DNA of 64,000 nt, from NCBI GenBank assembly GCA_024613925.1, contig GCA_024613925.1_4713.1. One strand, written 5' to 3'. A program made the position numbers and the translations under genes. This document shows, piece by piece, positions 36,598 through 51,048 of this stretch. Under the pieces are notes generated by a model that was not told the origin of the DNA, did not search any database, and saw nothing but the letters and a program-made list of their open reading frames with translations. This stretch comes from a phage. Position 1 is the first letter of the stretch; each line of letters begins with the position of its first letter.

Positions 36598-37090
36598 TCT
36601 CTTGGGCGAATTTAGTTCTTATTCAACATAATCGTACTATTACCAGAATAAGACTGAGATTAGATTGTTCAGATAAGGTCGTTAATCTTATCCCGGAGGC
36701 GACGATAGGCACATCACCTCCCGCTTGCGCTCTCACGCAAGAGCAGACTATATCACATCTCGTTTCAAACGGTGCTTCTTCAGCACCTCAACGAGAGTTC
36801 ACTTCTTCCCAGCGCATCCAGCGCCATTCTCTTATCCAAGGAGAATGCCTCACTCGAGGGGTACAGGGGGATGAATCCCTTAGTCGTTGAACCTTTACCT
36901 TAGAACGCTTCACAGCGATCCTTAGGTACTTGGCTGCGGATTGTCCTTAAGCTATTATCTGTTTTTATAACCATACCGTCTTTCTTTTCAGAATCCGTTT
37001 TGGTCGATAACAGCGATGGATGTCTTCGCAATTCAGTGAATCTCATCTACATGTCGCCACATAGACGGACCCTGCTATTAAAAGCGTTAA
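36545..37090 (-). ncRNA. group I self-splicing intron (no intron ORF); boundaries approximate
   Basis: On minus strand in order: P-like AATTGCGAAG (37024-37033), Q AATCCGCAGCC (36932-36942), R GTTCAACGACTA (36881-36892), S GATATAGTCTG (36744-36754); flanking ORFs together give a contiguous RNAP beta sequence. Confidence 0.6.
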
Positions 37091-40000
37091 TCATCTCTAT
37101 CAGCAGCAGGTACTGCAAGCGCCGACGTACTCATTATTGACGAGCTACCATCCGTTTTCTCGTCGTAAGGTTTCGTTTCACCGTATACAGACACAATGTT
37201 TGCGTTAGGTGCGAGGTAAGCAGAAATACCTACGTCCCCACTATCCTTCGTACCTTCGGATACAACACCAATGTCCGACTTGTCGTATTCACGATCGCGT
37301 GCGCGTCGAAGCGATGTCTTTGAACGACCCCCGATACCGGTCATCGTCGCTTCTTCACCCTGCTTGATATCCAGCATCGGGTTGGTTTCATCGATTACGA
37401 TGGAAGCGCTGTCGTCGAGAATCTGGTTCCAGACGCTTACCGGACTGATTGAGATTTTCTGGCGGTTTCCTTGACTGCTGTTCTCATTCTGACGAATAGC
37501 GCCAACCAGATCCTTATACACCAACTCAGCGAACTTATCGTACGTTTTAAAACGTTGGTAGTTCACATCGTTCGTGTTAGGTGCCCAATCATCCAGAAGC
37601 AGTTCGACGGCACGCAGTAACAACATGGCGAAATCGGTAGGTTCTCCCATGTTCTGCAGCAACGTACGGCTTACCGGATCAACGAAAAGACGCTCCATGA
37701 GTTCAAGTTCGCGTAAATGGCGAACCTTAAGTCCAGCCCCATCGACAACGTTAAAATAGATATCTCGATTGTCAAAAGCGCCGCGAGCGTAACCAATGTA
37801 GTTACGGTATTCGTTAAACCCACCCAGCAACAACGTCGTCATGCGATCGTCTTTACTGAAGATCAGACTTTCGTCGTCAAAGCTCACCGCGAATTCATCG
37901 GGTGCTAACCCCATACGAGAGCCGCGAGGTACCGTACGATAGTTCGCTTTAAGATGTTCTAATAACGGGGTAAGCCCACCCAGATAACTTAGAACAACAC
38001 CGACCGGAATACGTACACCCATGAATTCAAGATCGGCGGCTTCGATCGGCATCTTAGCCGCATTGATACCGAAGAAATCAGGGAACGTCCCTACAGGTGT
38101 TGGTGTTTGTCCTGACTGACAGATATAGAGCTGATTGCGTTTATCGATTGCTAAGAATTCACCCAGCGTGTTACGCGCAAACGTCAGGAGTCCTTCGGCT
38201 AACTGTTCGTTGAACCGATCTTCCCCAATGAACTCCGGCAATGTCTTTGTATCGAGACGTATATCCCAATCAGCAAATTGGATTTGGGTATAGTTGCGTG
38301 CAAGCACAGCGAAGTAATACGGAACTTTGACAGCTGGATCAAAGACGTTACCACGTTTCAACGTGGTTAAGGGTGAGGACTTATCGTAATACATCGCCGT
38401 AAGTTGACGTGTTAGCCAACGACCCGCATTATTAACGACACGCTCTGAACGTTTAACAAACACCTTACCGTAGGCGGTACTCAACGCAACTTCAGATGAC
38501 GATACCTTTCTAATAGGTTTATCAACACGTTGTTTACGCATCCGGTATTTGATGCCGTTAACGACATAAATGCCGTCCTTACGAACCTTCGGCAACATCA
38601 CCGGGAACGTGGTCGGGACACCGCCTACAGGAGCCAGTTTAATCGTGATGACTTGATAATCCCCCATCACGTCAACAACATCTTCAACTTTATATCCCGT
38701 GACAGGGTAACCTGCCTGCTGTACCGCAACGACGGCAGCTGCGATGTCCTTTTGCATTACGTGTTCAACGTAATGTTTATCCCACACCGCAAGCGTCGAT
38801 TTACACAGGCTCTTATCGACGATAACATCCGCTTCCGGCATAACCTTTGCAGGCGCTAATTTTGCGGCTTTTGGTTTAACTTCAACATACTCAGCAAGTG
38901 TTAATCCAGAACCGTCGGGTGCTTCGATTTCATGGATGGCGTCAGCATTACGCATCGCTGCTTTATATTGGACACCGCTTAACTGACCCGCATCCGCCAG
39001 ATCGCTCGCGCGTACCAACACCGCATCCGATAACGACTGAATATATTCGCCATGCGTTTTCGGTAACGTTGCCGCGTCAAAGACATCAACCTTTTCTTCT
39101 TCGGTATCGTCGGTAACGACTTCGAAGAGATCGTCGGTAATGTCCTGATCTTCATCGGGCTGGAAATCTGGTTGTACTTCTACCCCGGGTACTTCACGGA
39201 CATCTTCGAACGAGCGTTCTACAATGGCGTTCCACGCATCGGCATCATCGTCTTCATCCGACCCACCGACCAACTCCGCTTCTAACTCGTCGGGATCAAG
39301 AACGGTAGCGAGATCCTCACCGTTAGGAAGCACGACGTCGCGATCATCATACTCCGCATCCGGGCTGTCCGCAAGAATATCTCGCTCTTGACGAAGAACC
39401 TGTTCCTCTTCTTGTTTCTGTTCTTCTTCATTCGCGCTCTGCGACCACAGACGTGTTACCGCCATCATCCAACGACGTTGGAAGGTTTCAAGTGTCGTTT
39501 TATCGAGTTCTTCCCCTTCCTTCACAAGTCCGGTACGCCATTCTTCCAGCAGGCCGAGATTCAGCGTAAAGAAGTACACACCGTCTGTAAATACGATGTT
39601 AAGCTTATCCAGCGTGGCTCTGTCTAACGAAGCCATCGTGCTGTTCTCACGATCGGTTCCCAACCAGCGGAAGAAGTCAAAGAACGACAGCTCCTCCGGT
39701 GTGGCGAAATTCATGAGGTTATTACGGGTCGGTGCCTGTTGCGTGGTACGCATCAACGAAATCTTCGGCAATGTTGACGGTATACGGAACAACAAAAAGT
39801 GTTGGCGATCGCTTTGCTGTGCGATTTCGTTGGCTTTCGACCAAATTGTTTTACGTACGTTGAACCATTCATCATACCAACGGGTGAGCGTTGGACGATA
39901 AATGTACATGTGGTTAAGATGCGCGTAGTTAGCAACGATCTGAGCGTTGATGTTTTTCTCCACCGTGCTTAGATCGGTAACCAAACGAAAACGACGATGT

Positions 40001-40296
40001 GATGCACGATAATCCAATTTCGCTCGTGGGAGTTGGAATCGTTGATCACGTCGAGGTGCACCCTGTTTGGTTGCGAGATCATCAGCAAACGAAATCCATA
40101 GTTGAGCACTTTCTTTACTCAGCATGTATTCGTTTTCTGGAGGACCTATCAATGAAGGATCCGTTGCGGTGTAATGATAGACAGCATAACGCGGCAGCTG
40201 CAATAGCTGCACTAAACGTAATCTTGGTGATAGTAACTCTTGGTAGCGTCTGACACCAAACTGTCGGTAGTAATCAAGGTATTTAAGTTTTGCCAT
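37087..40296 (-). CDS. RNA polymerase beta-like subunit, upstream exon (N-terminal and middle regions, with acidic N-terminal extension)
   Basis: KDGIYVVNGIKYR (beta DNGTFIINGTERV-like), CQSGQTPTPVG (CPIETPEG-like), PLLEHLKANY (PFLEHDDANR-like), terminal ALAVPAADRDD (RQAVPTLRAD-like); GGAG RBS; start 3 nt after the beta-prime stop. Confidence 0.6.
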   Translation of the reverse strand: MAKLKYLDYYRQFGVRRYQELLSPRLRLVQLLQLPRYAVYHYTATDPSLIGPPENEYMLSKESAQLWISFADDLATKQGAPRRDQRFQLPRAKLDYRASHRRFRLVTDLSTVEKNINAQIVANYAHLNHMYIYRPTLTRWYDEWFNVRKTIWSKANEIAQQSDRQHFLLFRIPSTLPKISLMRTTQQAPTRNNLMNFATPEELSFFDFFRWLGTDRENSTMASLDRATLDKLNIVFTDGVYFFTLNLGLLEEWRTGLVKEGEELDKTTLETFQRRWMMAVTRLWSQSANEEEQKQEEEQVLRQERDILADSPDAEYDDRDVVLPNGEDLATVLDPDELEAELVGGSDEDDDADAWNAIVERSFEDVREVPGVEVQPDFQPDEDQDITDDLFEVVTDDTEEEKVDVFDAATLPKTHGEYIQSLSDAVLVRASDLADAGQLSGVQYKAAMRNADAIHEIEAPDGSGLTLAEYVEVKPKAAKLAPAKVMPEADVIVDKSLCKSTLAVWDKHYVEHVMQKDIAAAVVAVQQAGYPVTGYKVEDVVDVMGDYQVITIKLAPVGGVPTTFPVMLPKVRKDGIYVVNGIKYRMRKQRVDKPIRKVSSSEVALSTAYGKVFVKRSERVVNNAGRWLTRQLTAMYYDKSSPLTTLKRGNVFDPAVKVPYYFAVLARNYTQIQFADWDIRLDTKTLPEFIGEDRFNEQLAEGLLTFARNTLGEFLAIDKRNQLYICQSGQTPTPVGTFPDFFGINAAKMPIEAADLEFMGVRIPVGVVLSYLGGLTPLLEHLKANYRTVPRGSRMGLAPDEFAVSFDDESLIFSKDDRMTTLLLGGFNEYRNYIGYARGAFDNRDIYFNVVDGAGLKVRHLRELELMERLFVDPVSRTLLQNMGEPTDFAMLLLRAVELLLDDWAPNTNDVNYQRFKTYDKFAELVYKDLVGAIRQNENSSQGNRQKISISPVSVWNQILDDSASIVIDETNPMLDIKQGEEATMTGIGGRSKTSLRRARDREYDKSDIGVVSEGTKDSGDVGISAYLAPNANIVSVYGETKPYDEKTDGSSSIMSTSALAVPAADRDD

Positions 40297-40299
40297 GGG

Positions 40300-41946
40300 T
40301 TAGGCTCCACGAGGTCCCGTTAAGTTGCGTAATAGGAACGCAACCGTATCGTAACCAATATCAATGTTGAATTTATTTTTACCACTTACCCAGAAAGCTC
40401 GCTTCTTGTGCGAGTTGGTAATTTCGTCAATAGCTTCCATGGAATAAAGAACGTTAACCGAGACCGTATCACCGTCGAAGTCCGCCCCGAGGCCAGCTAG
40501 AAACACCTGGCCGACTTGGGTCGTTTCTACAAATGACGCTTTCAATGACCAATCTGGGTATTCCCATGCCATATACCGATCGCCTTCTAACGGTTGCCAA
40601 TCGACACCGAGTTCTCTTCTTGGCTTCGTGTTAACTGTCGTCCGCACATAGCAGGTTAACGGTATAACTGATTGCATTCCCGATACTGGATAACGTGTCA
40701 CCATCGCACCGAGTTTATTCCAAAGATGATAACCGCTCAGATAAACCAATTCGCAGTATGTAACCGGATGAACATTAGCGCCAGGTTTGTTCAGCATCTC
40801 TGGGGGTATTTCACTCATGCCACGGAATAACCGAAACGAATCGTTGTTCACATAGACGAGGCAAAGATAACGCCCATTAACCATGATAGGTTCGTTACGC
40901 ACACCAGGATCGCTTAGCGTGTTCAGTAAACGTTCGATACCGTCCCACGTTGTAAAGTCATCGATGGTATCTGGGTCTAACGTGACGCGTTCACGTTCCA
41001 TCGTTTCGGTATCGATAAGCTCAGCTTCAGTAACATCACGAACAAATATTTCCTGCAAAATCCCCGTACGTAATGCGTGCTGTGTGATAGGAAGAGCAGC
41101 CTTGCTCATCTGATATAGACCAAGTTGTACTGATGTACACGAAGTCTGGTTCGGTGAGCCGAGAACCTCTGTAGTTGGGATGACAGCCGAAATAACGTTA
41201 CGGGTTGAGTTCCAAACGCGACGTGAACCGAACTTCCCTTGGAAGATCCCTTTCTTACCTTGGAACATATCCAACAACAAAGCGTAGATATCGTTGAATG
41301 TTCTCTGTAAGCTCCAGCGCTGGCCGTCGTAAACGGGATCGGAATAATCTTTTAATCCATCAGGGACGGTGTTAGAAATTGCAAGGAAACGACGATACAA
41401 CTCCGTGATTTCTTGCTCGCTTTCATACCCGCCTTCTTTTACTTCTATTTCACGTAAGCCTGCAGGTAATACCAGTAAGTGACGGGTCATCGCTTTGAAC
41501 ATGTTCTCTTCGACAACTTTAATTCGTAGCTCTCGTTGAGCTGAACCCGTTGAAACGAACTTGATATCCGCGACGTGTTGTGCAAAGAACCCGTATCCTG
41601 TTTGTCCTGTTAACGCATCAGACGCAACGAAGTCGCGTTGTTCAGGATCCCAACGAGCATACGCCTTTCCCGACATGATATCACCATAGAGGTGTTTTAG
41701 TCGAATGAGGCGGTCGTAAATGACAGGGTGCAGGATTTCAACCTTGCATTCAATCACCGCAAATCGACGGTCTCGATCTTCACTACCTGCACTACCAAAG
41801 ATGGTGTAAGAATAGAAACCATCATCGTGGAAATTACCGGTGCTTGGGTCACGAATGCTCATGCTCGTGATCTTGGGGAGAAAACGTAACTGCTGTTTAT
41901 CGAGGTGTAAAATACTAATGTTAAACGGCTCTCTGACTTTAGCCAT
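40300..41946 (-). CDS. RNA polymerase beta-prime-like subunit, N-terminal catalytic part (548 aa from ATG 41946)
   Basis: GADFDGDTVSVNVLYSMEA matches the universal beta-prime NADFDGDQMAVHVPLTLEA; GKFGSRRVWNSTRNVIS resembles GKRVDYSGRSVIT; AGAGGAG RBS before ATG 41946. Confidence 0.7.
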   Translation of the reverse strand: MAKVREPFNISILHLDKQQLRFLPKITSMSIRDPSTGNFHDDGFYSYTIFGSAGSEDRDRRFAVIECKVEILHPVIYDRLIRLKHLYGDIMSGKAYARWDPEQRDFVASDALTGQTGYGFFAQHVADIKFVSTGSAQRELRIKVVEENMFKAMTRHLLVLPAGLREIEVKEGGYESEQEITELYRRFLAISNTVPDGLKDYSDPVYDGQRWSLQRTFNDIYALLLDMFQGKKGIFQGKFGSRRVWNSTRNVISAVIPTTEVLGSPNQTSCTSVQLGLYQMSKAALPITQHALRTGILQEIFVRDVTEAELIDTETMERERVTLDPDTIDDFTTWDGIERLLNTLSDPGVRNEPIMVNGRYLCLVYVNNDSFRLFRGMSEIPPEMLNKPGANVHPVTYCELVYLSGYHLWNKLGAMVTRYPVSGMQSVIPLTCYVRTTVNTKPRRELGVDWQPLEGDRYMAWEYPDWSLKASFVETTQVGQVFLAGLGADFDGDTVSVNVLYSMEAIDEITNSHKKRAFWVSGKNKFNIDIGYDTVAFLLRNLTGPRGA

Positions 41947-42068
41947 GGAGACACTCCTCTTTACCACCACCGGCTGCGGCGGTATCATCTGAACACACGA
42001 GAGACGTAATGGGTGATGGCGTCACCCATCGCTTCCTTGCCTGATGCCAGGAAGTTATTAGGTTACGT

Positions 42069-42093
42069 GCCTGCTTGATAAAATCAAGCAGGC
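42069..42093. promoter_or_regulatory. perfect palindrome GCCTGCTTGA-TAAAA-TCAAGCAGGC in divergent intergenic region
   Basis: 10-bp perfect inverted repeat between divergently transcribed RNAP and giant virion protein genes; a second palindrome ATGGGTGA/TCACCCAT lies at 42009-42029. Confidence 0.3.
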
Positions 42094-42191
42094 GATGTGT
42101 GAAGTTACGCTTCAACATTATCAATGCCGAAGGTAAGCTTCGTGCATCACGTTCCAACGTAACATGGGAACGTATCGAACTGGAGGTATAC

Positions 42192-45100
42192 ATGGTAGAT
42201 AAAACCCGTGTTGAGGGTGATGATAATTGGGATAACTGGGATGATGACTTCTCCCTGGATCTCGATTTTGATGAGCCTAAAGACGATCGTAAGCCAATAA
42301 CACGCTTTGCGGTAGGGGCGGTTAAAGGTGCTGCTGAGGATCTTACTTCCTACGAAAGAATGAAGGAGATCGCCAGAAACGCATTGCCTAAGGGCTACAG
42401 CGACGGTATGGATCTTATTGATTCCGCCGTCGGATCCACGAAGGAACTATACAATGAAGCCGTTCGTGACGTTCTTCCTAAGGTCCAAAGCTCAAAACGG
42501 TTAGCAGCACAACTAACCAAGAAATACCGTGCGAGCATGCCCGATTTCTCGAAGAAAATTCTCGAGCAATGGGAGCGAGAAGCCAAGGAAGAAGACGAAC
42601 GTAAACAGGCTGAAGCAGAACTCAAGCAACGCATGGCGAGCGCGGGAGATAATGAAATCGCCCGTAAGGTTGCCGAAGCGTTAGGCGAATCAGCAAACCA
42701 AAGCGCGGATCAGTTTGCCGAACAGCAAGCAAAAGAAAGTATCCGTGACGATATCGCTGACAAACGGTACGCTGTAACCAACAAACAAATGAGTGCGATG
42801 CAAGAAGGCGTCGCCAAGATGGTTGGTTTCAACAATGAATTCGCTGCGCGCTACATGCGTAAAAGCCTGGAACTGAAATATCGTTCCTTAGCGATTCAAC
42901 GTGCAAGTTTTGATCAGCATAAAAAGTTAGCCGAAGTCTATATCGGTTTATTACAAAACATCCAGAAGAACACGGCTTTACCTGATGCGGCTAAAGCGAA
43001 AATGTCGGAAGAATTCCGTCGTAGTGCATACCAACGTTTCTTTGGTAATACGTTAGATGCGATGAGTTCTTTCGAGAACCGTTTCTTTGCCGATGTTAAG
43101 AAAAACCTATCCAGGAACATCGTCGGAGCTTTATCGGGATTCGCTGAAAGCAGTCGAGACGCACTGTCTGGCCTCGCCGAAGTGAAAGACGGTATGTCCA
43201 TGATGGATGGAATTGGTTCGGAAGGCGATATAAAGGAGATGAAGGGGAGAATGCTGGGCCAGCTTATCGGCACGGCAGTAACCCCATGGCTTGCCGAGAA
43301 AGGATCGACAGCACTACGTGATTTTGCAAAACGCCATCCTAACTCAAAAATCGCATCCGCAATAAAAACCATTGATGCTGGTGGCGATGCGGCCGCATTT
43401 ACCAGTCGTAACATCGGTAAAATTCTTCAAGAGGACATTCGGAAAAACCAGTTTAATCTCAGCGATCCGTGGTATAAACGTTTCTTACGGGATACCGGAA
43501 GCATGATGTTCAACATGGACACCGGACGTAACTTCCGTGTGATGAACGACACCGCTGAAACACTGGCGGAGCAAACGTCTTTCGACGGTTTAACTTACCG
43601 CAGCATCAATGAAGTTATTCCTGGTTTTCTTGCACGCATTCTGAAAAGCAGTGAAGGCATCCGTACGGGAAACAGCGATCCTGACTACGAGGTCTATGAC
43701 AGCATCAGCGGGCAATTCGTGGCTCAGCGCACGCGTGAACAAAGCGTCAATGACACGCTGTTTAACAAACGTACATTTGGTTATTACGCCAGCCGTTTCA
43801 ACGAGGTTATCTCGGTCATCGATCCCGATAAGAAATTATCGGATAACGCAAGAAAAGGATTAGCAAAACAGCTAGCTCGTGACAGCGACGCAAACATTGC
43901 ATTCGACCCGGCTCGTTTTACGGATGAAAGCAACTTCGATCGTAGTATCGACCGTGACGCTATTAAGGAACTTTCTAATTACTTCCGTAACCGTTACGGT
44001 ATCGACTACGTACCCGATGAAAAAGGACAACGCCATCAGGTCATTGGAAACCGCGGGCAATATTACACGGAACGTAACCGAGCTGACCTTCGCTACGGTA
44101 ATTTGAAATCGTTACAACCGGATATCCAGCGTAACCTTAACCTACTGAAACGTACTGGTGACGTCCAATATCTGGAACGGATTGGGATTGTAACGAGAAA
44201 TAGCGACGGAAGCTACTCGGTTAATCACGATCGGTATTTCTCTGAAATCGATCGATACATCGACCGACCGGAGTACGCTGAACGCAGTGATGTTAATACG
44301 CGATTAACCGCTCAGGAAACAAGAGCGCTGGCGCTGGGTTATCGTGACGCAAAACCATCAGTTGATGACGTGCAAAATGCGGGTCGGCCACACATCGATC
44401 GTAAGGCTGTTGGAACAGTAACCGTTGATGAAAACATCGGTTACGATAAATGGTGGAACGACACAGGTGTTATCACCACATCGCTTGAAGAACAGAATCG
44501 AGCGTGGCAAGAGCTTTATCTCGAAGCGTTATCTGAAGCATCCGAACAACGTACTGAAATGCTTGCGTTGCTGAAAGCCATTTCTGAGAAAGACTGGTCT
44601 AATAACGTTTCGTTGGATGGCGAAGATGTACCTGAAGGTGCGGCACCCATTTCATTTATCGATCGCGCCAAACAAAAACTCGGTGCACGCAACCTCTTTA
44701 AAGGCGGTCGTAATCTCCTCTGGAAAGGAATTAAAAATACCGCACGTCTGGGTGTTAAAGGCGCACGCTGGGGTGCAGAACGCACGTTGGGCAGTTTGGT
44801 AAATTCTGGCCGACGCATTATCAATTTCAACCGTTTTGTGTTCGGTGCATTATCCAAGGTTGATCAGGTTCCGTTTGACATTTACGTTAAAGGGGAATCC
44901 CAGCCACGCATATTGGCTGCCAAACTTCGTCAGGGGTTATACTTCGACGAAGCGACAGGAAAAGCTGTAAAACGGATGAAGGATATCAAAGGTCCACTCG
45001 TTGATGCGGATGGAAATATCGTAATCAGTAACGAGGATATCGAGAAAGGGTTGGTCACTCGCGCTGGTCGTGCCTTTGAGAATTCAGGACTTAAGGCGTG

Positions 45101-48100
45101 GGCACGTGAAGGTCTTAATGGAATCACAACGGTATTAAGTCTGCCACGGATGTTAAAACGCGGTGCGGTCGAGATCTACAAACAGCTTGACAAAACACCC
45201 GACGTTTACGTCAAGGGAGAATCAACGCCTCGTCTGTTGTCCACGGTGTTAGCAGCGGGTGGGTATTTCCGTCGGTCGGATGGACAAGTCATCAAAAATC
45301 TTGAAGACATCGATGGTGATGTTGTTGATGCACAAGGTAACGTCGTACTTACGCTTGCCGATATGCAGAAAGGACTTGTCGATAAATACGGTAAAGCGGT
45401 TCGTCGCTTAAAAGAAAAGCTCATCAACTTCGGTGTAAAAGCTTTTACGTTACCGTTAACGCTGCTGCGTAAGACGAAGGACATCCTTAAAGCCCTTCCA
45501 GGTAAAACCGTTAACGGTCTACGACGGATGGGATTAAATTTCCAATCACCTGACGCATTACTGGTGGGAACAACGTCGAGCATGGTAGATCGTCTCGATG
45601 CGATTTATAAGCTCCTCGACCAGCGTATGCCGGGAGGCGATAAGGATTACCGCGATTGGAATGGCGATGGTGTTCGAGAAGGATCGTTGGAAGACCTGAA
45701 ACGTAAGCGCGCGGCCAAGGAAAACGGTAAGGATGACACCGGCAAAGATTCCGGTAAAGGAGAAGAAAAGGAGAAGAAACGAGGATTACTCGGAAGCCTT
45801 TTCGATATGCTTGGCGATACCGCATTAGGTAAACGACTCATGGCGAGTCCGCTTGGAAAAATTCTAGGTGGTCTTGGGGCGGTGTTAAGCGGCGGAGCAT
45901 CGTTAACCGGATTGTTGGGTAAGGGTCTCATTAGTGGAACCGGCGCGCTAGTCAAGGGAGGACTAAGTGTGGCAGGATGGTTAGGACGTGGTGCGTTAAT
46001 GGCGGGCGGGGCCGCATTGAACGCCGTTGGTGGGTTATCGGGATTAGGTGCATTCCTCATCTCACCTGTTGGGCTTGCTATTGCAGGTGGTGCATTGGCT
46101 GCTTATGCTGGATGGAAGATCTATCAGCATTTCGCCGAGAAGCCTGACCCGATGCAGAAGCTCCGTCTTATTGCATACGGTGCAAAAGGGGACGATAAAG
46201 ACTTCAATAAGAAGCTGCTTGCGACAGAAACATACCTCACCGACCATGTGGTTATGACCGGGGATACCATCGGATTCGATCCGAAAGCCGATTCTGAAAA
46301 GATTCTCGAAATCTGGGAATTGTCCCTGGAAGATTCCGACCGAATGAACGAATGGAAACGCTGGTATCTGCATCGTTTTATTCCTGTTTTCGCTCGCGCG
46401 TACAAACTCTGGAAAGAGCATATGCCGGACGAGAAGAAATACATGGAAATGGATAAATATCCAAACGGTGAGAACAAAGTGAAATGGTCGGAAGCGTTTA
46501 TCTGGCCTTCCGATAGTCCTGACGGTCCGTATTACGTCGAAGCTAACCCGTTGGGTTCTTCTGGTGCGACGCGTTATATTGCTGGTCAAGACGTCAAAAC
46601 CTTGATGCTGAAACAACTCGAAGCCATCAAGAAAGAGTACCAGAATCAGATCAAACAATACACTCATGATGAGGCTATTGCTGATTGGTCACGGATGTCT
46701 GACACACAACGTAAATCCGTTGCGCCTAACGCATTACGCGGTCAGAAAGCGTCGTTACGTTTTAACGATAAGCGTTACAACAGCGCTGGCGCTAAAGGAC
46801 GACAGAAGCTTGACGCAACCGCCGTTATTGAAAGCGTAGACCGCCGTGGTAGGAAATGGGTTGCTGGTGGATACATCGATGAACTCACCAGTCTCCGTGT
46901 TCGCGCGTACGGTATCAAGGTTCCGTTGTTAAGTCAGATAAAAGTGCTGATGGAACTTGAAGACGCCGTAGAACCCGGCGTTGTCGCTGAAGGTAAAGGT
47001 GTTAAATACGGTGGCGATCTTGTTGCGCTCTACAAGAAATTCGCGACGAAGTTCGGAAGAGACGTTAACAGCAAGCGGGATCAGGATATCTGGTTTGCTT
47101 GGATGAATAACCGTTTCCTACCCGTCTTTTTAACCTACTACCAACAAGTTAGCGAAATGGGCGGTCAAGGTCTTCTGTCCGACGTGGTACAGAACCTGAA
47201 AGACAGCCAACGTTGGGAAATCGGTGAAGCACTTGTCGCAACGCAATACCGTGATGAGAAAGGTACACTGCAGCCTGTATGGTCCTGGAATAGTTGTGGT
47301 TTCTCCGGTACTGAAGCTAACACCATCAGCAGTTCAACAAAGAGCCAACTCGATCTGTTAAAAGAATATGCGGATAAAGAGAAGGTTCGTGAGAAGAACG
47401 CGGAAGCATCGCAAGAGGATACCGATAAATTATCGAAGATCCAAGAGCTGATGATGAAGCAGGCTGGGTACGAGAAGAAAGACGGTGTCTGGCAGAAGAA
47501 ATCTCGCATTACCGGCGGGATGAGTAACTCCGAAGCGAATTACAACCCCAGTGGGAATAGGGTGGGTGAAAGCAGCTTTACGGCTTCGGCTACCTCCAAT
47601 GCGGGATTAGGGTCAACCGGCGATGTTACTGGATTGCCTAACATGGGCTTACAGAAACCTGCAACGGGACCAGGTCCTGAAGCTGGACGTCGTGCGCTTG
47701 TTAAATCCGCTGTAAAACGCGGCATTACCGATCCAATGGAAATGGCGATGTTCCTTGCGAATATCGAACATGAATCGGGGAACTACACTCACGTACGTGA
47801 GGGGAACTATAAGACACCAGAGCGTCTTAAACAGGTCTTCCCTTACAAATTCCGTGATGTGCAGGATGCCGCACAGACGATCAGCATGGGGCCGGAAGCG
47901 GTATTCGAACGTGTGTACGGTAATCGTAAAGATCTCGGAAACACACAGAAAGGGGACGGGGCGAAGTATTTAGGGCGTGGCTTCATTCAGGTTACCGGTA
48001 AAGCTAACTACGCTCGTTTGTCTAAGACCTTGAATAAGGATCTTGTCAGCGATCCGACCTACCTGGAAACGCCGGAAGGTGCAGCGGAAGGTAGTGTTGC

Positions 48101-48857
48101 ATGGTGGCTCAACCGAGGTAACGTATTACGCGATCCCGCAAAACGGGGTGACGTACGCCAAGTTCGTTATCTGGTTAACGGCGGCTATAACGGATTACGT
48201 GATGTTGAACAACGTTCTGCTTATTGGATTCAGGCGGCTAAGAACGGCACCCTGAAGAAAATGATGGACGAGTTATCAGGGTCAACATCGGACGATCAAG
48301 CTGAAGGACCGACCACTGCCGAACAGGTGAAGAACGAAGCAGCACAAGAGGCAAACGGAACACCTGCTGTAAGCAACGATCCGCAAGCTCCAGCGCCTTC
48401 TACCACCCCTGAAGCTAAACCGTCTGCGGCTGCCGGGACGGCTCCAGCGCCAGGAGAAGCATCGCCGACACCTGGAAGTTTCGAAACAGCAAAAGCCGCG
48501 GCAGGACAACCGACATCAACTCCAGCACCTAGCGATTTGCCGTCAAACCCGGGCGCAAATCGAGGGATATCGGTTCCGAATACGCCTGCACAGGTTGCGC
48601 AGTCTGCGACACAAACATCGGTTGCAAGTGAGAACTTCTACGGCAGCGCAGGTGAAATTCTCCGACAGCAGCTGACCACACAGCAGAACATCGAGAAGAA
48701 CACCGGTAGAACCAATGAACTTATTTCGGAATTAATCCAAGCCGTTAAAGGTTCTTCTATCGGTAAGGGTTCTGCAGGTCCTTCTCAACAACAGACGATG
48801 TCGCTACCTAATCGTCCGCAAGGAATCTCTCCAACACGGACAAGGTACGCACAGTAG
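42192..48857 (+). CDS. giant virion protein (2221 aa) with GH19-type lysozyme domain; phiKZ gp181-like tail/ejection lysin
   Basis: GGAGG RBS before ATG 42192; lysozyme domain at about 47721-48250 (ANIEHESGNY...YLGRGFIQVTGKANY); Gly-rich hydrophobic segment at about 45780-46120; low-complexity A/P/T/S C-terminus. Confidence 0.7.
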   Translation: MVDKTRVEGDDNWDNWDDDFSLDLDFDEPKDDRKPITRFAVGAVKGAAEDLTSYERMKEIARNALPKGYSDGMDLIDSAVGSTKELYNEAVRDVLPKVQSSKRLAAQLTKKYRASMPDFSKKILEQWEREAKEEDERKQAEAELKQRMASAGDNEIARKVAEALGESANQSADQFAEQQAKESIRDDIADKRYAVTNKQMSAMQEGVAKMVGFNNEFAARYMRKSLELKYRSLAIQRASFDQHKKLAEVYIGLLQNIQKNTALPDAAKAKMSEEFRRSAYQRFFGNTLDAMSSFENRFFADVKKNLSRNIVGALSGFAESSRDALSGLAEVKDGMSMMDGIGSEGDIKEMKGRMLGQLIGTAVTPWLAEKGSTALRDFAKRHPNSKIASAIKTIDAGGDAAAFTSRNIGKILQEDIRKNQFNLSDPWYKRFLRDTGSMMFNMDTGRNFRVMNDTAETLAEQTSFDGLTYRSINEVIPGFLARILKSSEGIRTGNSDPDYEVYDSISGQFVAQRTREQSVNDTLFNKRTFGYYASRFNEVISVIDPDKKLSDNARKGLAKQLARDSDANIAFDPARFTDESNFDRSIDRDAIKELSNYFRNRYGIDYVPDEKGQRHQVIGNRGQYYTERNRADLRYGNLKSLQPDIQRNLNLLKRTGDVQYLERIGIVTRNSDGSYSVNHDRYFSEIDRYIDRPEYAERSDVNTRLTAQETRALALGYRDAKPSVDDVQNAGRPHIDRKAVGTVTVDENIGYDKWWNDTGVITTSLEEQNRAWQELYLEALSEASEQRTEMLALLKAISEKDWSNNVSLDGEDVPEGAAPISFIDRAKQKLGARNLFKGGRNLLWKGIKNTARLGVKGARWGAERTLGSLVNSGRRIINFNRFVFGALSKVDQVPFDIYVKGESQPRILAAKLRQGLYFDEATGKAVKRMKDIKGPLVDADGNIVISNEDIEKGLVTRAGRAFENSGLKAWAREGLNGITTVLSLPRMLKRGAVEIYKQLDKTPDVYVKGESTPRLLSTVLAAGGYFRRSDGQVIKNLEDIDGDVVDAQGNVVLTLADMQKGLVDKYGKAVRRLKEKLINFGVKAFTLPLTLLRKTKDILKALPGKTVNGLRRMGLNFQSPDALLVGTTSSMVDRLDAIYKLLDQRMPGGDKDYRDWNGDGVREGSLEDLKRKRAAKENGKDDTGKDSGKGEEKEKKRGLLGSLFDMLGDTALGKRLMASPLGKILGGLGAVLSGGASLTGLLGKGLISGTGALVKGGLSVAGWLGRGALMAGGAALNAVGGLSGLGAFLISPVGLAIAGGALAAYAGWKIYQHFAEKPDPMQKLRLIAYGAKGDDKDFNKKLLATETYLTDHVVMTGDTIGFDPKADSEKILEIWELSLEDSDRMNEWKRWYLHRFIPVFARAYKLWKEHMPDEKKYMEMDKYPNGENKVKWSEAFIWPSDSPDGPYYVEANPLGSSGATRYIAGQDVKTLMLKQLEAIKKEYQNQIKQYTHDEAIADWSRMSDTQRKSVAPNALRGQKASLRFNDKRYNSAGAKGRQKLDATAVIESVDRRGRKWVAGGYIDELTSLRVRAYGIKVPLLSQIKVLMELEDAVEPGVVAEGKGVKYGGDLVALYKKFATKFGRDVNSKRDQDIWFAWMNNRFLPVFLTYYQQVSEMGGQGLLSDVVQNLKDSQRWEIGEALVATQYRDEKGTLQPVWSWNSCGFSGTEANTISSSTKSQLDLLKEYADKEKVREKNAEASQEDTDKLSKIQELMMKQAGYEKKDGVWQKKSRITGGMSNSEANYNPSGNRVGESSFTASATSNAGLGSTGDVTGLPNMGLQKPATGPGPEAGRRALVKSAVKRGITDPMEMAMFLANIEHESGNYTHVREGNYKTPERLKQVFPYKFRDVQDAAQTISMGPEAVFERVYGNRKDLGNTQKGDGAKYLGRGFIQVTGKANYARLSKTLNKDLVSDPTYLETPEGAAEGSVAWWLNRGNVLRDPAKRGDVRQVRYLVNGGYNGLRDVEQRSAYWIQAAKNGTLKKMMDELSGSTSDDQAEGPTTAEQVKNEAAQEANGTPAVSNDPQAPAPSTTPEAKPSAAAGTAPAPGEASPTPGSFETAKAAAGQPTSTPAPSDLPSNPGANRGISVPNTPAQVAQSATQTSVASENFYGSAGEILRQQLTTQQNIEKNTGRTNELISELIQAVKGSSIGKGSAGPSQQQTMSLPNRPQGISPTRTRYAQ

Positions 48858-48906: not shown

Positions 48907-51048
48907 ATGGGTATTCTTGTTCAAAACGCCCTAATAACCAAACAAGCGTTTTTATTACCTGGCGATAGCAGCACGCTTAGTGCTGACATGATTAAAGCGA
49001 GACATACACCGTATTCCTACGATAACGTCGATGATACCACCTTAGGTGGGAACTGGGTGCTTAACCCGCCACCGCAATACACCAAATTTGCCGACATCAA
49101 AGAACGCCGACGTGCGGTTATGCCGGGATCAACAGGCATGGGTCGAGGCTACAGTGAAAGCATTAACAGCTTTAAAGAAGTCGTTACGTTACGATTCGGT
49201 AAACCTCGCTTTACAGGCGCAAGTATCTTCTTTACTGATTTCTACGATGCGGATGTTGCCGTAACGGTTAAAACCGGTCGCGATCCCGGTATTCTTTATT
49301 ACGCAGCCAAAGCGTATACCACCGTTCTTTCTTACCTCACGCCTCTACCTTACCTGTATATGGTTGGACGTATTGGTCGATATTTCCTGGGTAAACCTAC
49401 CAGTCAATATTACTATCAAGTACCAACCATGCACGTGTATTGGGCGTCTTTCCAGACGCTGGTAAACCAAACAGCGATAAACATGGGTCTTATCGCCGGT
49501 GCCGGTAAAGATAAAGGCTATGTGGAAGAAGGGGGTACCGTACTCCACCAATATTCAATCGGTGGTCAGAACGTTGAAGAATTCATCAACTACGCCTCTA
49601 AGACACTACCGGGGATTTATAAGAAAGGTGGTGGGATCGATATCTATCAGATCGCAACACGCCGTCAGCGTATACAGAACGCATGGGTACGCCGTATTCA
49701 ATCCATGATGGAAAACGATTACTCGTCTTACGAGGAGTTCTGGAACGATCTTGATAAACGACTTGATAGCGGGGCATTTCCATCGGATGTGACAGGTCGT
49801 ACGTTAACGCAGTATCTCGCCGACACACAGAAGTCTGCTGTTTACAGTGCGACAGCTGGTGATAATAAACAAACGATGGACGACCTTTTATTCGGAAGGG
49901 CCACATACACCAACAAGGATGCTGATGCCAACTTCAATGTCTCGGCGGCTACCTCCGACGGCGGTACGTCAACACAGAGTCAGGGCACAACAGCCAATGT
50001 CGGTAATTCAACATCGGGGACAACGCAGGCTTCAACAGCAGCATCCACGGCTGGAGGCGCGAACGTACAGAGCAAAGGAATCGGACAAACGAATGCAGCC
50101 GAAGAAGCTACGTTTCTTGATCTGATGGATGCTGAACTGGCTGACGGTGCTCAGTTCATCAGTTTTCGAGTCGACTCTGTCACCAGTGTAACCGAAACGT
50201 TTTCAAACAGCGCATCAGAAAGTTCAATCGCGCAGACGATGAACAGTCGTGCGCAAGCGAACATCGAACGTCGTTTCACCCTTTCCGGTGGTAATACAGG
50301 TTGGGCTATATTGGACGAAGCAATCAAAGCCGGTTCCGATCTCGTTAATGGCGCTATTTCCGGGATGGGCCTGGATGGTATTTTTGGTGCTTTCATGGGT
50401 TCCGGCTTCGCAGACATTCCGAAATTCTATTCTGGGTCGTCAGTAAGTCTACCGCGTGCCGATCTGACGATGGAATTGCGTTCCTGGAGCGGGGATCGTT
50501 GGTCGATCTTTACGAACCTCATGGTACCTCTTTTAGCCATTCTTGCAGGTGGTTTACCTCAGGCTACCGGTAAATCGTCCTACGGGATGCCGTTCATGTG
50601 TGAGTGTTATATTCCCGGTAAAGTCCAGATTAAAATGGGTCTTATCGATAACATCACTGTGACTCGCCATGTTGGAAACGTACCATCAACACGCGAGCGA
50701 TTACCGTTGGGTATCGATGTCAGCTTCAGTGTTTATGACCTGTCGTCCATCGTCGCCATGCCGATCACAACGACAGCCGCATCGATCGCAAAATTGGATC
50801 CTCGTGGCTTCTTAAGCGATCTTCTTGCTGACGATACGCCACTCAACAACTATCTTGCTGTATTATCGGCATTGACGCTTACGGAACAAGTTTACATGAT
50901 TCCGGATTTAAGTCGTCGTATGCATAAAACCATGGCTGATATCGATAGTTTCTGGAGCAAAGGTAATTTTGCTAGCTGGTTGTCTGACACCATGCCTGGC
51001 AGGATAGCATCAGGGCTGTTATGGAAACGCACAGAACGACCGTTCTGA
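48907..51048 (+). CDS. putative virion structural protein (713 aa)
   Basis: GAGGA RBS; directly downstream of the giant virion protein; S/T/G/A-rich central segment. Confidence 0.5.
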   Translation: MGILVQNALITKQAFLLPGDSSTLSADMIKARHTPYSYDNVDDTTLGGNWVLNPPPQYTKFADIKERRRAVMPGSTGMGRGYSESINSFKEVVTLRFGKPRFTGASIFFTDFYDADVAVTVKTGRDPGILYYAAKAYTTVLSYLTPLPYLYMVGRIGRYFLGKPTSQYYYQVPTMHVYWASFQTLVNQTAINMGLIAGAGKDKGYVEEGGTVLHQYSIGGQNVEEFINYASKTLPGIYKKGGGIDIYQIATRRQRIQNAWVRRIQSMMENDYSSYEEFWNDLDKRLDSGAFPSDVTGRTLTQYLADTQKSAVYSATAGDNKQTMDDLLFGRATYTNKDADANFNVSAATSDGGTSTQSQGTTANVGNSTSGTTQASTAASTAGGANVQSKGIGQTNAAEEATFLDLMDAELADGAQFISFRVDSVTSVTETFSNSASESSIAQTMNSRAQANIERRFTLSGGNTGWAILDEAIKAGSDLVNGAISGMGLDGIFGAFMGSGFADIPKFYSGSSVSLPRADLTMELRSWSGDRWSIFTNLMVPLLAILAGGLPQATGKSSYGMPFMCECYIPGKVQIKMGLIDNITVTRHVGNVPSTRERLPLGIDVSFSVYDLSSIVAMPITTTAASIAKLDPRGFLSDLLADDTPLNNYLAVLSALTLTEQVYMIPDLSRRMHKTMADIDSFWSKGNFASWLSDTMPGRIASGLLWKRTERPF

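What the first reader, a model, noticed from the sequence alone, without database searches (positions are those of the whole stretch)
42192..48857. 2221-aa virion protein combining a Gly-rich membrane-type segment with an internal GH19-type lysozyme domain
The ORF has a central Gly/Ala/Leu-rich hydrophobic stretch (about 45780-46120), a lysozyme-like domain with the GH19-type pattern (EHESGNY ... YLGRGFIQVTGKANY, about 47721-48250) and a low-complexity A/P/T/S tail. This architecture resembles the 2237-aa phiKZ gp181, a virion peptidoglycan hydrolase. The track ORF start at 42075 runs through two upstream palindromes and lacks an RBS, so the start was moved to 42192.
Basis: partly seen in the sequence, partly recalled or inferred. 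Interest (0 to 1): 0.5.

Follow-up and report, generated by a model that had tools for sequence, protein, structure and literature searches.

The report
Giant phage tail protein with lysozyme
This is the 2221-residue tail protein of a Goslar-like jumbo phage of E. coli, a near-identical copy of a protein already annotated and detected in Goslar virions and a relative of phiKZ gp181, so it is real but ordinary.

Summary
ORF 42192-48857 (+) encodes 2221 aa behind a GGAGG ribosome-binding site. It has a Gly/Ala/Leu-rich hydrophobic stretch (residues 1197-1314), a GH19-type lysozyme domain (about 1828-2020) and an A/P/T/S-rich tail.

The window comes from a close relative of Escherichia phage Goslar. 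The protein is 95.2% identical to Goslar HOV27_gp204 ('putative chitinase'). It is a colinear, syntenic homologue of phiKZ gp181 and SPN3US gp239.

The GH19 assignment holds by three tests:
- sequence match to solved GH19 endolysins (E = 1e-22);
- a predicted fold (pLDDT 89) that matches them;
- conservation of the active site of a proven GH19 muramidase.

Published Goslar virion mass spectrometry finds the orthologue at about 3-8 copies per virion. Cryo-EM of Goslar and phiKZ assigns the spike to other proteins, which argues against the old 'puncturing needle' idea. SPN3US gp239 is a tail protein. phiKZ orf181 is essential and 'likely the tape measure'.

Most likely it is a tail-lumen tape-measure/ejection protein, analogous to T5 Pb2, that carries a muramidase. 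That location and the membrane role are inferred, not shown.

Across the family the lytic module varies (SLT, GH19, M23, CHAP, VanY) on a conserved scaffold. Already known; low interest.

The parts
41989..42191 (.). Divergent intergenic region between the virion RNA polymerase beta gene (- strand, starts at 41988) and the giant gene. It holds four palindromes (42009-42029, 42032-42054, 42069-42093, 42149-42173) and the RBS GGAGG at 42182-42186.
   Evidence: 98% identical to Goslar over the aligned 41980-42260 stretch. Any function for the palindromes is untested.
42192..48857 (+). Coding sequence of the 2221-aa giant tail protein, stop codon included. Orthologue of Goslar HOV27_gp204 / Goslar_00232, phiKZ gp181 and SPN3US gp239.
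   Evidence: PHROG 3201, E = 5e-291
42294..43667 (+). Residues 35-492: long, almost continuous alpha-helices (17 to 79 residues each), 89% helix. Candidate rod or ruler part.
   Evidence: AlphaFold2 DSSP, low pLDDT
43092..43511 (+). Residues 301-440: mosaic, variable patch inside the helical part. It is 65.7% identical to Goslar but 88.6% identical to another Goslar-like protein (P0002).
43689..44291 (+). Residues about 500-700: compact alpha/beta domain predicted with confidence (pLDDT 79-92). The family-conserved motif RSINEVIPGFLARIL lies just upstream of it, at about residues 470-484. No match to any solved fold.
44856..45479 (+). Two tandem copies of a roughly 100-residue beta-rich module (residues 889-989 and 998-1096; 'D[IV]YVKGE..PR...G.Y......G..I....DI.G.V.D..GN.V'). 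Conserved across the family, including phiKZ gp181.
   Evidence: 41% identity, E = 9e-24
45780..46133 (+). Residues 1197-1314: Gly/Ala/Leu-rich, nearly uncharged hydrophobic segment with two transmembrane-like stretches (1224-1243 and 1271-1308).
   Evidence: The richest Gly/Ala-rich, low-charge window lies at about 45-65% of the length in about 75 of 93 family members.
46146..47144 (+). Two copies of a second conserved module (residues 1319-1405 and 1563-1651; 'LR..[AQ]YG ... W..W...RF.PV[FY]'). Function unknown.
   Evidence: 28% identity, E = 5e-6; invariant R1325, Y1329, G1330, W1391, R1395, F1396, P1398 and V1399
47673..48251 (+). Residues 1828-2020: GH19-type muramidase (lysozyme) domain. 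Predicted catalytic residues are E1861 (47772-47774) and E1870 (47799-47801), with T1935 (47994-47996).
   Evidence: active-site mapping to PaGH19Lys
48279..48629 (+). Residues 2030-2146: A/P/T/S-rich low-complexity linker.
   Evidence: The Goslar virion peptide AAAGQPTSTPAPSDLPSNPGANR (residues 2102-2124) shows this region is present in particles.
48630..48854 (+). Residues 2147-2221: C-terminal helix ('L.QQL..Q...') plus a Pro/Arg-rich end. It is conserved across the family whatever the lytic domain. Candidate anchor to the baseplate hub.
   Evidence: the anchoring role is inference by analogy with T5 Pb2
48907..51048 (+). Downstream gene, 713 aa. Orthologue of Goslar gp203 (tail-tube initiator complex) and phiKZ gp182 (hexameric 'spacer' ring between tube initiator and hub).
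   Evidence: colinear with Goslar 222225-224366; structural roles

Best explanation
The gene encodes the giant tail protein of a Goslar-like nucleus-forming jumbo phage (Chimalliviridae). It is the orthologue of Goslar gp204, phiKZ gp181 and SPN3US gp239.

Most likely a few copies (3 or 6) lie inside the wide tail-tube lumen as the tape-measure/ejection protein. In this model the long N-terminal helices run along the tube, and the conserved C-terminal helix is held at the baseplate hub next to the gp203/gp62 rings.

When the sheath contracts and the spike leaves, the protein is expelled. Its GH19 domain, a muramidase using E1861 and E1870, cuts the peptidoglycan locally. The Gly-rich hydrophobic segment inserts into a host membrane to help form the DNA conduit.

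Shown here: orthology, synteny, the GH19 fold and active site, helical content, and family-wide conservation of the hydrophobic segment and C-terminus. Taken from papers on orthologues: presence in virions, tail location, essentiality. Inferred only: lumen location, ruler function, membrane insertion, and the order of events.

The confidence of 0.7 is for the whole statement. Orthology and the GH19 muramidase domain are near certain (about 0.97). The tail-lumen tape-measure/ejection mechanism is about 0.6.
For: Identity.
- 93.4% nt and 95.2% aa identity to Goslar Goslar_00232 / HOV27_gp204.
- PHROG 3201, E = 5e-291.
- phiKZ gp181: 3e-43 and 6e-37, colinear over residues 23-1730.
- SPN3US gp239: 4.6e-19 and 5.9e-9.
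- Same gene neighbourhood in all four phages.

Enzyme.
- PHROG 181 'endolysin', 1e-53.
- PDB 9EOI at 1.3e-22, and 7R6S, 9MS6, 4OK7.
- Most of the 99 homologues carry PF00182.
- E1861, E1870 and T1935 are invariant in 46 sequences.
- AF2 model with pLDDT 89.3; top Foldseek hits are GH19 endolysins, then GH19 chitinases.
- Of the nine active-site residues of PaGH19Lys, eight are identical (H50, E51, E60, Y103, Q127, T129, N188, R197 map to H1860, E1861, E1870, Y1909, Q1933, T1935, N1996, R2008) and I187 maps conservatively to V1995. That enzyme was shown to be a muramidase with no chitinase activity.

Virion and tail.
- Goslar virion LC-MS/MS found YP_009820915 with 34 peptides, 24% coverage and an estimated 3.4-8.0 copies, labelled 'Tail protein'. 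Peptides from residues 771-787 and 2102-2124 were seen.
- SPN3US gp239 ('tape measure protein', 259 kDa) is missing from, or more than 10-fold depleted in, tailless particles.

Not the spike. The spike, tip and hub are Goslar gp13/gp48 and phiKZ gp164/gp163.1/gp101. Neither atlas models gp204 or gp181. A family profile matches no solved PDB chain outside the lytic domain.

Tape-measure-like anatomy.
- The N-terminal 1196 residues are 64% helix, and residues 35-492 are 89% helix in very long helices.
- The order rod, hydrophobic stretch, muralytic domain, C-terminal helix is the same as in T5 Pb2.
- The gene is adjacent to the tube-initiator/spacer gene.
- The 68 Å lumen reported for phiKZ could hold folded 25-kDa domains.
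Against: - No structure places this protein anywhere. Large parts of the peripheral baseplate of Goslar and phiKZ are still unmodelled, so a baseplate location is not excluded.
- Length does not scale simply with the tail. The Goslar tube is 46 x 39.16 Å = 180 nm and the phiKZ tube is 43 x 37.73 Å = 162 nm. Yet phiKZ gp181 is slightly longer overall, and longer before its hydrophobic segment.
- At 1.5 Å per residue the whole protein would be 333 nm, so at most about half can act as an extended ruler.
- The AF2 model of the N-terminal part has low confidence (mean pLDDT 56). It is also not all helix: it contains a compact domain and two beta-rich modules.
- In TP901-1, hydrophobic regions of the tape measure were argued to serve chaperone binding in assembly rather than membrane insertion.
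- The Pfam GH19 score is below the gathering threshold and NCBIfam gives no hit.
- Enzyme activity was not measured for this protein or for its Goslar orthologue.
Confidence: 0.7

Rival explanations
1. It is a component of the still unmodelled peripheral baseplate or fibre network. There it would present its lysozyme at the cell surface rather than travelling through the tube.
For: Both cryo-EM studies leave major parts of the peripheral baseplate unassigned. RefSeq and PHROG 3201 call the family 'tail fiber protein'. The copy number of about 3-8 would also fit a six-fold baseplate position. Protein length does not scale with tail length.
Against: An external lysozyme could not reach peptidoglycan through the outer membrane. 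The nearly uncharged roughly 120-residue Gly-rich hydrophobic segment is hard to place in a soluble external structure. The N-terminal part is predicted as long helices, not the beta-rich trimeric folds of fibres. In Goslar the fibre-like filaments are attributed to DUF7941 proteins. SPN3US and phiKZ workers treat it as the tape measure.
Confidence: 0.13
2. It is a capsid-internal ejection protein, like T7 gp16. It would be packaged in the head and extruded through the tail to build a trans-envelope channel with a lytic domain.
For: Chimalliviruses package and inject many proteins. T7-type gp16 also combines a lytic domain with a channel-forming role. The gene lies next to genes for head-packaged virion RNA polymerase subunits.
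Against: The SPN3US orthologue gp239 is absent from, or more than 10-fold depleted in, DNA-filled tailless heads and is grouped with tail proteins. The phiKZ RefSeq record notes gp181 as 'tail-associated endolysin', while its neighbours carry 'structural head protein' notes. The copy number is low.
Confidence: 0.06
3. It forms the central needle-like cell-puncturing device of the baseplate. This is the older model for phiKZ gp181.
For: Reviews based on work from 2007-2008 list gp181 as a 'needle-like cell-puncturing device, putative trimer'.
Against: High-resolution structures assign the spike, spike tip, hub and pin to other proteins: Goslar gp13 and gp48; phiKZ gp164, gp163.1, gp101 and gp174. 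All density of the hub and inner baseplate is accounted for.
Confidence: 0.03
4. The hydrophobic Gly-rich segment is an assembly element, for example a binding site for a tail-assembly chaperone or a plug inside the tube. On this view it is not a membrane-inserting segment, and the rest of the best explanation is unchanged.
For: In TP901-1 only one of two hydrophobic regions of the tape measure is needed for infection. The authors favour chaperone recruitment over membrane insertion.
Against: In T5 Pb2 the equivalent stretch is modelled as inserting into the outer membrane after expulsion. The segment is conserved in composition and position across about 90 very divergent family members. That shows it is important but does not discriminate between the two roles.
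Confidence: 0.25

Closest known systems
Escherichia phage vB_EcoM_Goslar HOV27_gp204 / Goslar_00232 (YP_009820915, QBO64023; 'putative chitinase' / 'tail fiber protein')
   Same: Orthologue with 95.2% amino-acid identity, no gaps over 2221 residues, and the same neighbours. The GH19 domain is 99.5% identical to P0001, the 2252-aa cluster representative with the length of Goslar's annotated product, and residues 801-2221 are 99.4% identical.
   Different: Residues 301-440 are only 65.7% identical and resemble another Goslar-like phage instead. GenBank starts the Goslar gene 31 codons upstream at a GTG. The ATG with the GGAGG site is the better start.
Pseudomonas phage phiKZ gp181 (NP_803747, 2237 aa; structural peptidoglycan hydrolase, Briers et al. 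2008)
   Same: Homologous and colinear over about 1700 residues. It shares the two 'YVKGE' modules, the Gly-rich hydrophobic segment at mid-length, the two 'LR..YG / W..RF.PV' modules, a lytic domain at about residue 1850-2000, a low-complexity linker and a C-terminal helix. Synteny is the same.
   Different: Only about 24% identity. The lytic domain is an SLT-type lytic transglycosylase (PF01464, similar to phiKZ gp144), not GH19.
Salmonella phage SPN3US gp239 (2372 aa, 'tail tape measure protein')
   Same: Homologous (E = 4.6e-19 and 5.9e-9) and in the same genomic position. It has been shown experimentally to belong to the tail.
   Different: More distant. BLASTP detects only residues 29-572 and 1321-1724.
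Phage T5 tape measure protein Pb2
   Same: Same order of parts: long helical rod, hydrophobic stretch compatible with transmembrane helices, muralytic domain, and C-terminal helices held in the hub. Pb2 is expelled from the tube on infection. This is what the window protein most likely works like.
   Different: No sequence homology was detected. Pb2 is about half the size (cleavage site at R1127) and has a metallopeptidase motif rather than a glycosidase. It belongs to a non-contractile tail and is proteolytically processed.
GH19 endolysins: PaGH19Lys (PDB 9EOI), SPN1S endolysin (4OK7), KTN6 gp46 (8P8E)
   Same: Same fold and active site. Sequence E-values are 1e-22 to 4e-16, with about 28-29% identity over the structural alignments.
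   Different: Those are free-standing proteins of about 200 residues that lyse the cell from within at the end of infection. Here the domain is embedded at residues 1828-2020 of a virion protein.

Membership tests
phiKZ gp181 / SPN3US gp239 / Goslar gp204 giant tail protein family (PHROG 3201) | Sequence homology across the non-enzymatic scaffold (N-terminal about 1700 residues) | tested here: met
   PHROG 3201, 5e-291. phiKZ gp181, 3e-43 and 6e-37. SPN3US gp239, 4.6e-19. 93 database homologues of 1331-3129 aa.
phiKZ gp181 / SPN3US gp239 / Goslar gp204 giant tail protein family (PHROG 3201) | Conserved position: divergent from the virion RNA polymerase beta-subunit genes and followed by the gp182-type baseplate spacer gene | tested here: met
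phiKZ gp181 / SPN3US gp239 / Goslar gp204 giant tail protein family (PHROG 3201) | A peptidoglycan-degrading domain in the C-terminal quarter, downstream of a Gly/Ala-rich hydrophobic segment | tested here: met
   GH19 at 1828-2020, after the segment at 1197-1314. In other members the slot holds SLT (54 of 93), GH19 (7), M23 (5), CHAP (5) or VanY (5).
phiKZ gp181 / SPN3US gp239 / Goslar gp204 giant tail protein family (PHROG 3201) | Low-copy structural protein of the tail | not testable with these tools
   Known only for orthologues: Goslar virion MS, about 3-8 copies, and SPN3US tailless particles.
Glycoside hydrolase family 19, endolysin (muramidase) subfamily | GH19 alpha-helical two-lobe fold | tested here: met
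   AF2 pLDDT 89.3. Foldseek hits 9EOI, 4OK7, 8P8E and 8XCL (TM-scores normalised to target 0.67-0.72), then ChiC and plant GH19 chitinases.
Glycoside hydrolase family 19, endolysin (muramidase) subfamily | Catalytic Glu pair nine residues apart, plus the Ser/Thr of the GRG..Q..[ST] motif | tested here: met
   E1861, E1870 and T1935 are invariant in 46 homologues. They align with E51, E60 and T129 of PaGH19Lys.
Glycoside hydrolase family 19, endolysin (muramidase) subfamily | Score above the Pfam PF00182 gathering threshold | tested here: not met
   18.2 bits against a 25.5-bit cut-off, matching only residues 1922-1960. The model is built mainly on chitinases. Most close homologues do carry PF00182, and NCBI names an identical fragment 'glycoside hydrolase family 19 protein' (P0094).
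Glycoside hydrolase family 19, endolysin (muramidase) subfamily | Hydrolysis of the MurNAc-GlcNAc bond of peptidoglycan | not testable with these tools
   Shown for PaGH19Lys. Not measured for this protein or for Goslar gp204.
Tail tape measure proteins (functional class) | Located in the tail-tube lumen, with the C-terminus at the hub | not testable with these tools
   Not modelled in either cryo-EM atlas. No solved homologue of the scaffold exists.
Tail tape measure proteins (functional class) | Protein length determines tail length | tested here: inconclusive
   Two data points only. Goslar: 2221 aa, 46 tube rings, 180 nm. phiKZ: 2237 aa, 43 rings, 162 nm. There is no simple proportionality.
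Tail tape measure proteins (functional class) | Predominantly long alpha-helical (coiled-coil-like) region and hydrophobic stretch(es) | tested here: met
   Residues 35-492 are 89% helix in helices of up to 79 residues. The hydrophobic segment is at 1197-1314.

The most novel reading that the evidence does not exclude
The giant protein is more than a ruler with a lysin. After expulsion it would span the outer membrane, peptidoglycan and inner membrane as the DNA conduit. Its conserved Gly/Ala-rich segment, inserted in the inner membrane, would help seed or shape the early-infection (EPI) membrane vesicle that is specific to chimalliviruses. On this reading the variable patch at residues 301-440 would reflect host-specific interactions. 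Nothing here tests this. It is only not excluded.
Probability: 0.08. Interest if true: 0.7.

Novelty: already known. Interest (0 to 1): 0.18.

Why it matters
For this window it matters little. The protein is a 95%-identical copy of an annotated Goslar protein that has been detected by mass spectrometry, and its family (phiKZ gp181, SPN3US gp239) is in the literature as the tail lysin and probable tape measure.

Three points are still useful.
- 'Putative chitinase' and 'tail fiber protein' are poor names. 'Tail tape-measure-like protein with GH19 muramidase domain' fits the evidence better, and the start codon should be the ATG at 42192.
- Family-wide, one conserved scaffold of roughly 2200 residues carries interchangeable cell-wall-degrading modules (SLT, GH19, M23, CHAP, VanY, tail lysozyme) in the same slot. 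These could be a source of virion-associated lysins.
- This essential, largest protein of chimalliviruses is absent from both 2026 virion atlases. Its location and its role in getting DNA into the EPI vesicle remain open experimental questions.

Tried and rejected
- NCBIfam gave no hit for the giant protein or for its downstream neighbour.
- Besides the sub-threshold GH19 match, Pfam gave only a meaningless DUF2753 hit (E = 0.08).
- A profile of 24 family members searched against all PDB sequences hit only lytic domains (phiKZ gp144 SLT, 1.6e-50) and low-complexity noise. It hit no tape-measure chains, so there is no sequence link to known tape measures.
- Foldseek of the N-terminal 1196-residue model against the PDB found nothing (best E = 0.48). 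The model is low-confidence, so this is uninformative rather than negative.
- Neither the Goslar nor the phiKZ atlas paper mentions gp204/gp181, a tape measure or density in the lumen.
- I tried to test the start codon with the Goslar virion peptide list. The predicted peptides of the 31-residue upstream extension and of the true N-terminus were not found. The stored table is cut off alphabetically (only about A to B/C is held), so this says nothing.
- Thomas et al. 2012 (phiKZ head/tail proteomics) is not held.
- A 57-sequence full-length alignment failed, so a 24-sequence one was used.
- No terminator-like site was found in the upstream region, and only weak sigma-70-like matches.
- No meaningful DNA tandem repeats lie in the gene.
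- I considered whether the Avs5 anti-jumbo-phage system senses this protein. It senses a different protein, JADA.
- Whether GH19 entered the family once or several times could not be resolved. Giant-protein GH19 domains (38-46% identity) are no closer to this one than free-standing endolysins are (41-46%).

Full report
**What is in the sequence.** The longest ORF in the region runs 42075-48857 on the + strand, from a TTG. The ATG at 42192 is preceded by GGAGG at 42182-42186, five bases upstream, and gives a 2221-residue product. The TTG lies inside a perfect 11-bp palindrome (42069-42093), and a second palindrome (42149-42173) lies between the TTG and the ATG. Two more palindromes occupy 42009-42054. 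This 203-nt stretch (41989-42191) is the divergent intergenic region between the giant gene and a minus-strand RNA polymerase gene that starts at 41988. In a 24-member family alignment Met1 of the 42192 start is at least 90% conserved as the first residue.

**The three described features are all present.**
- The Gly/Ala/Leu-rich segment covers residues 1197-1314 (nt 45780-46133). It is G 28%, A 14%, L 21%, with 8% charged residues, and Kyte-Doolittle peaks of 1.6 and 1.9.
- The motifs EHESGNY (47766-47786) and YLGRGFIQVTGKANY (47967-48011) lie in a domain spanning residues 1828-2020.
- An A/P/T/S-rich stretch covers residues about 2030-2146.

**Where the window comes from.** The gene is 93.4% identical in DNA and 95.2% in protein to Escherichia phage vB_EcoM_Goslar. 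There it is Goslar_00232 ('putative chitinase', COG3179) in GenBank and HOV27_gp204 ('tail fiber protein') in RefSeq. The window is colinear with Goslar over at least 31753-60857. This is a Goslar-like nucleus-forming jumbo phage (Chimalliviridae).

**Relation to phiKZ gp181.** phiKZ gp181 (2237 aa) aligns colinearly over residues 23-693 (E = 3e-43) and 887-1730 (E = 6e-37). PHROG 3201 matches at 5e-291. The neighbourhood is the same in phiKZ, Goslar, SPN3US and the window: the giant gene diverges from the virion RNA polymerase beta-subunit genes and is followed by the gp182-type gene. SPN3US gp239 (2372 aa) is also homologous (4.6e-19 and 5.9e-9).

One thing differs. phiKZ gp181 carries an SLT lytic-transglycosylase domain (PF01464, residues 1885-1978), where the window protein has GH19.

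**Test of the GH19 claim.** The Pfam GH19 model scores below its gathering threshold (18.2 against 25.5 bits), and NCBIfam finds nothing. Every other test is positive.
- PHROG 181 'endolysin' scores 1e-53.
- Solved GH19 endolysins match over the whole domain: 9EOI at 1.3e-22, and 7R6S, 9MS6, 9MS7, 4OK7 and 8P8E.
- Most of the 99 database homologues of the domain carry PF00182. A 161-residue fragment identical to the window is named 'glycoside hydrolase family 19 protein' by NCBI.
- In an alignment of 46 homologues E1861, E1870 and T1935 are invariant.
- An AlphaFold2 model built on that alignment has mean pLDDT 89.3. Its best Foldseek matches in the PDB are the GH19 endolysins, followed by bacterial and plant GH19 chitinases.
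- The published active site of PaGH19Lys (9EOI) is H50, E51, E60, Y103, Q127, T129, I187, N188 and R197. Eight residues map to identical residues H1860, E1861, E1870, Y1909, Q1933, T1935, N1996 and R2008, and I187 maps conservatively to V1995.

PaGH19Lys cleaves the MurNAc-GlcNAc bond and does not act on chitin. 'Muramidase' is therefore a better name than 'chitinase'. Activity of this particular domain is inferred.

**Anatomy of the rest.** A family alignment and self-comparison show a conserved scaffold, in this order:
- an acidic N-terminus;
- a long helical region;
- the motif RSINEVIPGFLARIL (about residues 470-484), just upstream of a compact domain (about residues 500-700);
- two copies of a roughly 100-residue beta-rich module (889-989 and 998-1096; 41% identical, E = 9e-24);
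- the Gly-rich hydrophobic segment;
- two copies of a second module (1319-1405 and 1563-1651, E = 5e-6);
- the lytic domain;
- a Pro-rich linker;
- a conserved C-terminal helix with a Pro/Arg-rich end.

AlphaFold2 on residues 1-1196 is of low confidence overall (mean pLDDT 56). It predicts 64% helix. Residues 35-492 are 89% helical, in helices of up to 79 residues. The 500-700 domain and the two repeat modules are predicted with more confidence. Neither Foldseek nor a family profile searched against all PDB sequences finds any solved relative of the scaffold.

**The family.** A search with residues 1-1800 found 93 proteins of 1331-3129 residues. In about 75 of them the richest Gly/Ala-rich, low-charge 100-residue window lies at about 45-65% of the length, and about 75 have at least one transmembrane-like window. 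The enzyme slot downstream varies:
- SLT in 54 of 93;
- GH19 in 7 (five Goslar-like proteins plus P0025 and P0060);
- Peptidase_M23 in 5;
- CHAP in 5, some with a phage tail lysozyme domain;
- VanY in 5, of which 4 also carry SLT (counts; domain names and positions checked on four proteins).

**What is known experimentally about orthologues.**
- Goslar: a 2026 preprint (doi 10.64898/2026.04.21.720040) reports LC-MS/MS of purified virions. YP_009820915 was found with 34 peptides, 24% coverage and an estimated 3.4-8.0 copies per virion, and was labelled 'Tail protein'. The peptide AAAGQPTSTPAPSDLPSNPGANR lies in the low-complexity tail and AWQELYLEALSEASEQR at residues 771-787. The same calibration gives 2.3-6.0 for proteins known to be present in six copies, so 3 or 6 copies is a fair reading.
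- Goslar cryo-EM: the model assigns the spike to gp13, the spike cap to gp48, and the tube-initiator rings to gp62 and gp203. Gp203 is the gene immediately downstream of ours. Gp204 is never mentioned.
- phiKZ: the atlas (PMC13250141) likewise assigns the spike, tip, hub, pin, spacer and initiator to gp164, gp163.1, gp101, gp174, gp182 and gp88, and does not mention gp181. The older view of gp181 as the needle-like puncturing device is therefore not supported.
- SPN3US: gp239 is called the tail tape measure protein. It is missing from, or more than 10-fold depleted in, tailless DNA-filled heads.
- phiKZ genetics: genome-wide transposon mutagenesis found no insertion in the 6714-bp orf181. [quoted passage not shown]

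**Most likely mechanism.** The order of parts is helical rod, hydrophobic stretch, muralytic domain, C-terminal helix. This is the same as in the T5 tape measure Pb2. In T5 the C-terminal helices sit as a trimer in the hub. Receptor binding then expels the protein, the hydrophobic stretch is modelled as entering the membrane, and the released muralytic part is proposed to digest peptidoglycan.

By analogy, I propose the following for this protein. A few copies lie in the tube lumen, which is 68 Å wide in phiKZ. The C-terminal helix is held near the gp203/gp62/gp48 assembly. After sheath contraction and loss of the spike the protein is expelled, the GH19 domain cuts the wall locally, and the Gly-rich segment helps form the conduit. 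All of these steps are inference.

**What speaks against a simple ruler.** The Goslar tube is 46 x 39.16 Å = 180 nm, and the phiKZ tube is 43 x 37.73 Å = 162 nm. Yet phiKZ gp181 is slightly longer, both overall and before its hydrophobic segment. Fully helical, the protein would measure 333 nm. The 1196 residues before the hydrophobic segment would give 179 nm, which matches the Goslar tube, but given the phiKZ numbers this may be coincidence. In TP901-1 the hydrophobic regions of the tape measure were attributed to chaperone binding rather than membrane insertion. Much of the peripheral baseplate is still unmodelled, so a baseplate location cannot be excluded.

**Novelty and score.** The gene, its GH19 annotation, its presence in virions, and the family's role as tail lysin and probable tape measure are all already on record. 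What this analysis adds is a firmer GH19/muramidase assignment with catalytic residues, a domain map, the family-wide view of module swapping, support for the corrected start, and evidence that 'tail fiber' and 'puncturing needle' are poor labels. A specialist would not be surprised. Interest is low (0.18). The one open question is where this essential giant protein sits and what it does during DNA delivery into the EPI vesicle. That question needs experiments, not more sequence analysis.

**Seen in passing.**
- The window has a group I intron (Rfam RF00028, 56.2 bits) at 36724-37091 on the minus strand. It lies inside a 507-nt insertion that interrupts the large virion RNA polymerase subunit gene and is absent from Goslar.
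- Conversely, Goslar's annotated group I intron with its ORF gp206 (record 211754-213837) is absent from the window. Here the other polymerase subunit gene (40300-41988, 562 aa) is uninterrupted.
- Within the giant protein, 49 of the 107 differences from Goslar fall in residues 301-500. Residues 301-440 are 65.7% identical to Goslar but 88.6% identical to another Goslar-like phage, against 99.4% identity to Goslar for residues 801-2221. This indicates a recombined or fast-evolving patch.

Noticed in passing
window 36597-37103 (Rfam hit 36724-37091, - strand): A group I intron (RF00028, 56.2 bits, E = 1.5e-12) lies in a 507-nt insertion that interrupts the large virion RNA polymerase subunit gene. 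ORF 37087-40296 ends inside it, and the coding sequence resumes below 36596. Goslar has no insertion at this site.
   Followed up: partly
window 40480-40519; Goslar MK327938 211754-213837 (L001 8245-10328): Goslar's annotated group I intron plus its ORF (Goslar_00230 / gp206, similar to phiKZ ORF179) is absent from the window. Here the neighbouring RNA polymerase beta gene is one uninterrupted ORF of 562 aa (40300-41988), against 502 aa annotated in Goslar. The two close relatives thus carry introns at different sites.
   Followed up: partly
window 43092-43511 (residues 301-440 of the giant protein): A mosaic patch: 65.7% identical to Goslar but 88.6% identical to another Goslar-like protein (P0002, on a 248-kb contig), while residues 801-2221 are 99.4% identical to Goslar. 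It may reflect recombination or fast evolution inside the predicted helical rod. The reason is unknown.
   Followed up: partly
window 41989-42191: The divergent intergenic region carries four palindromes (42009-42029, 42032-42054, 42069-42093, 42149-42173). The aligned 41980-42260 stretch that contains it is 98% identical to Goslar, higher than the 93.4% of the adjacent gene. These may be regulatory or 5'-UTR structures. No terminator-like site was found, and only weak sigma-70-like matches.
   Followed up: partly
window 47889-48371 (residues 1900-2060); protein P0094: A 161-residue fragment 100% identical to this part of the protein is deposited at NCBI as 'glycoside hydrolase family 19 protein, partial [Escherichia coli]' on a 484-nt contig. 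This is probably phage DNA in a bacterial assembly.
   Followed up: no
window 44856-45479 and 46146-47144: The protein contains two different internal duplications: residues 889-989 / 998-1096 (41% identity) and residues 1319-1405 / 1563-1651 (28% identity). Both are conserved in phiKZ gp181 and across the family, and neither has a known function or a solved relative.
   Followed up: partly
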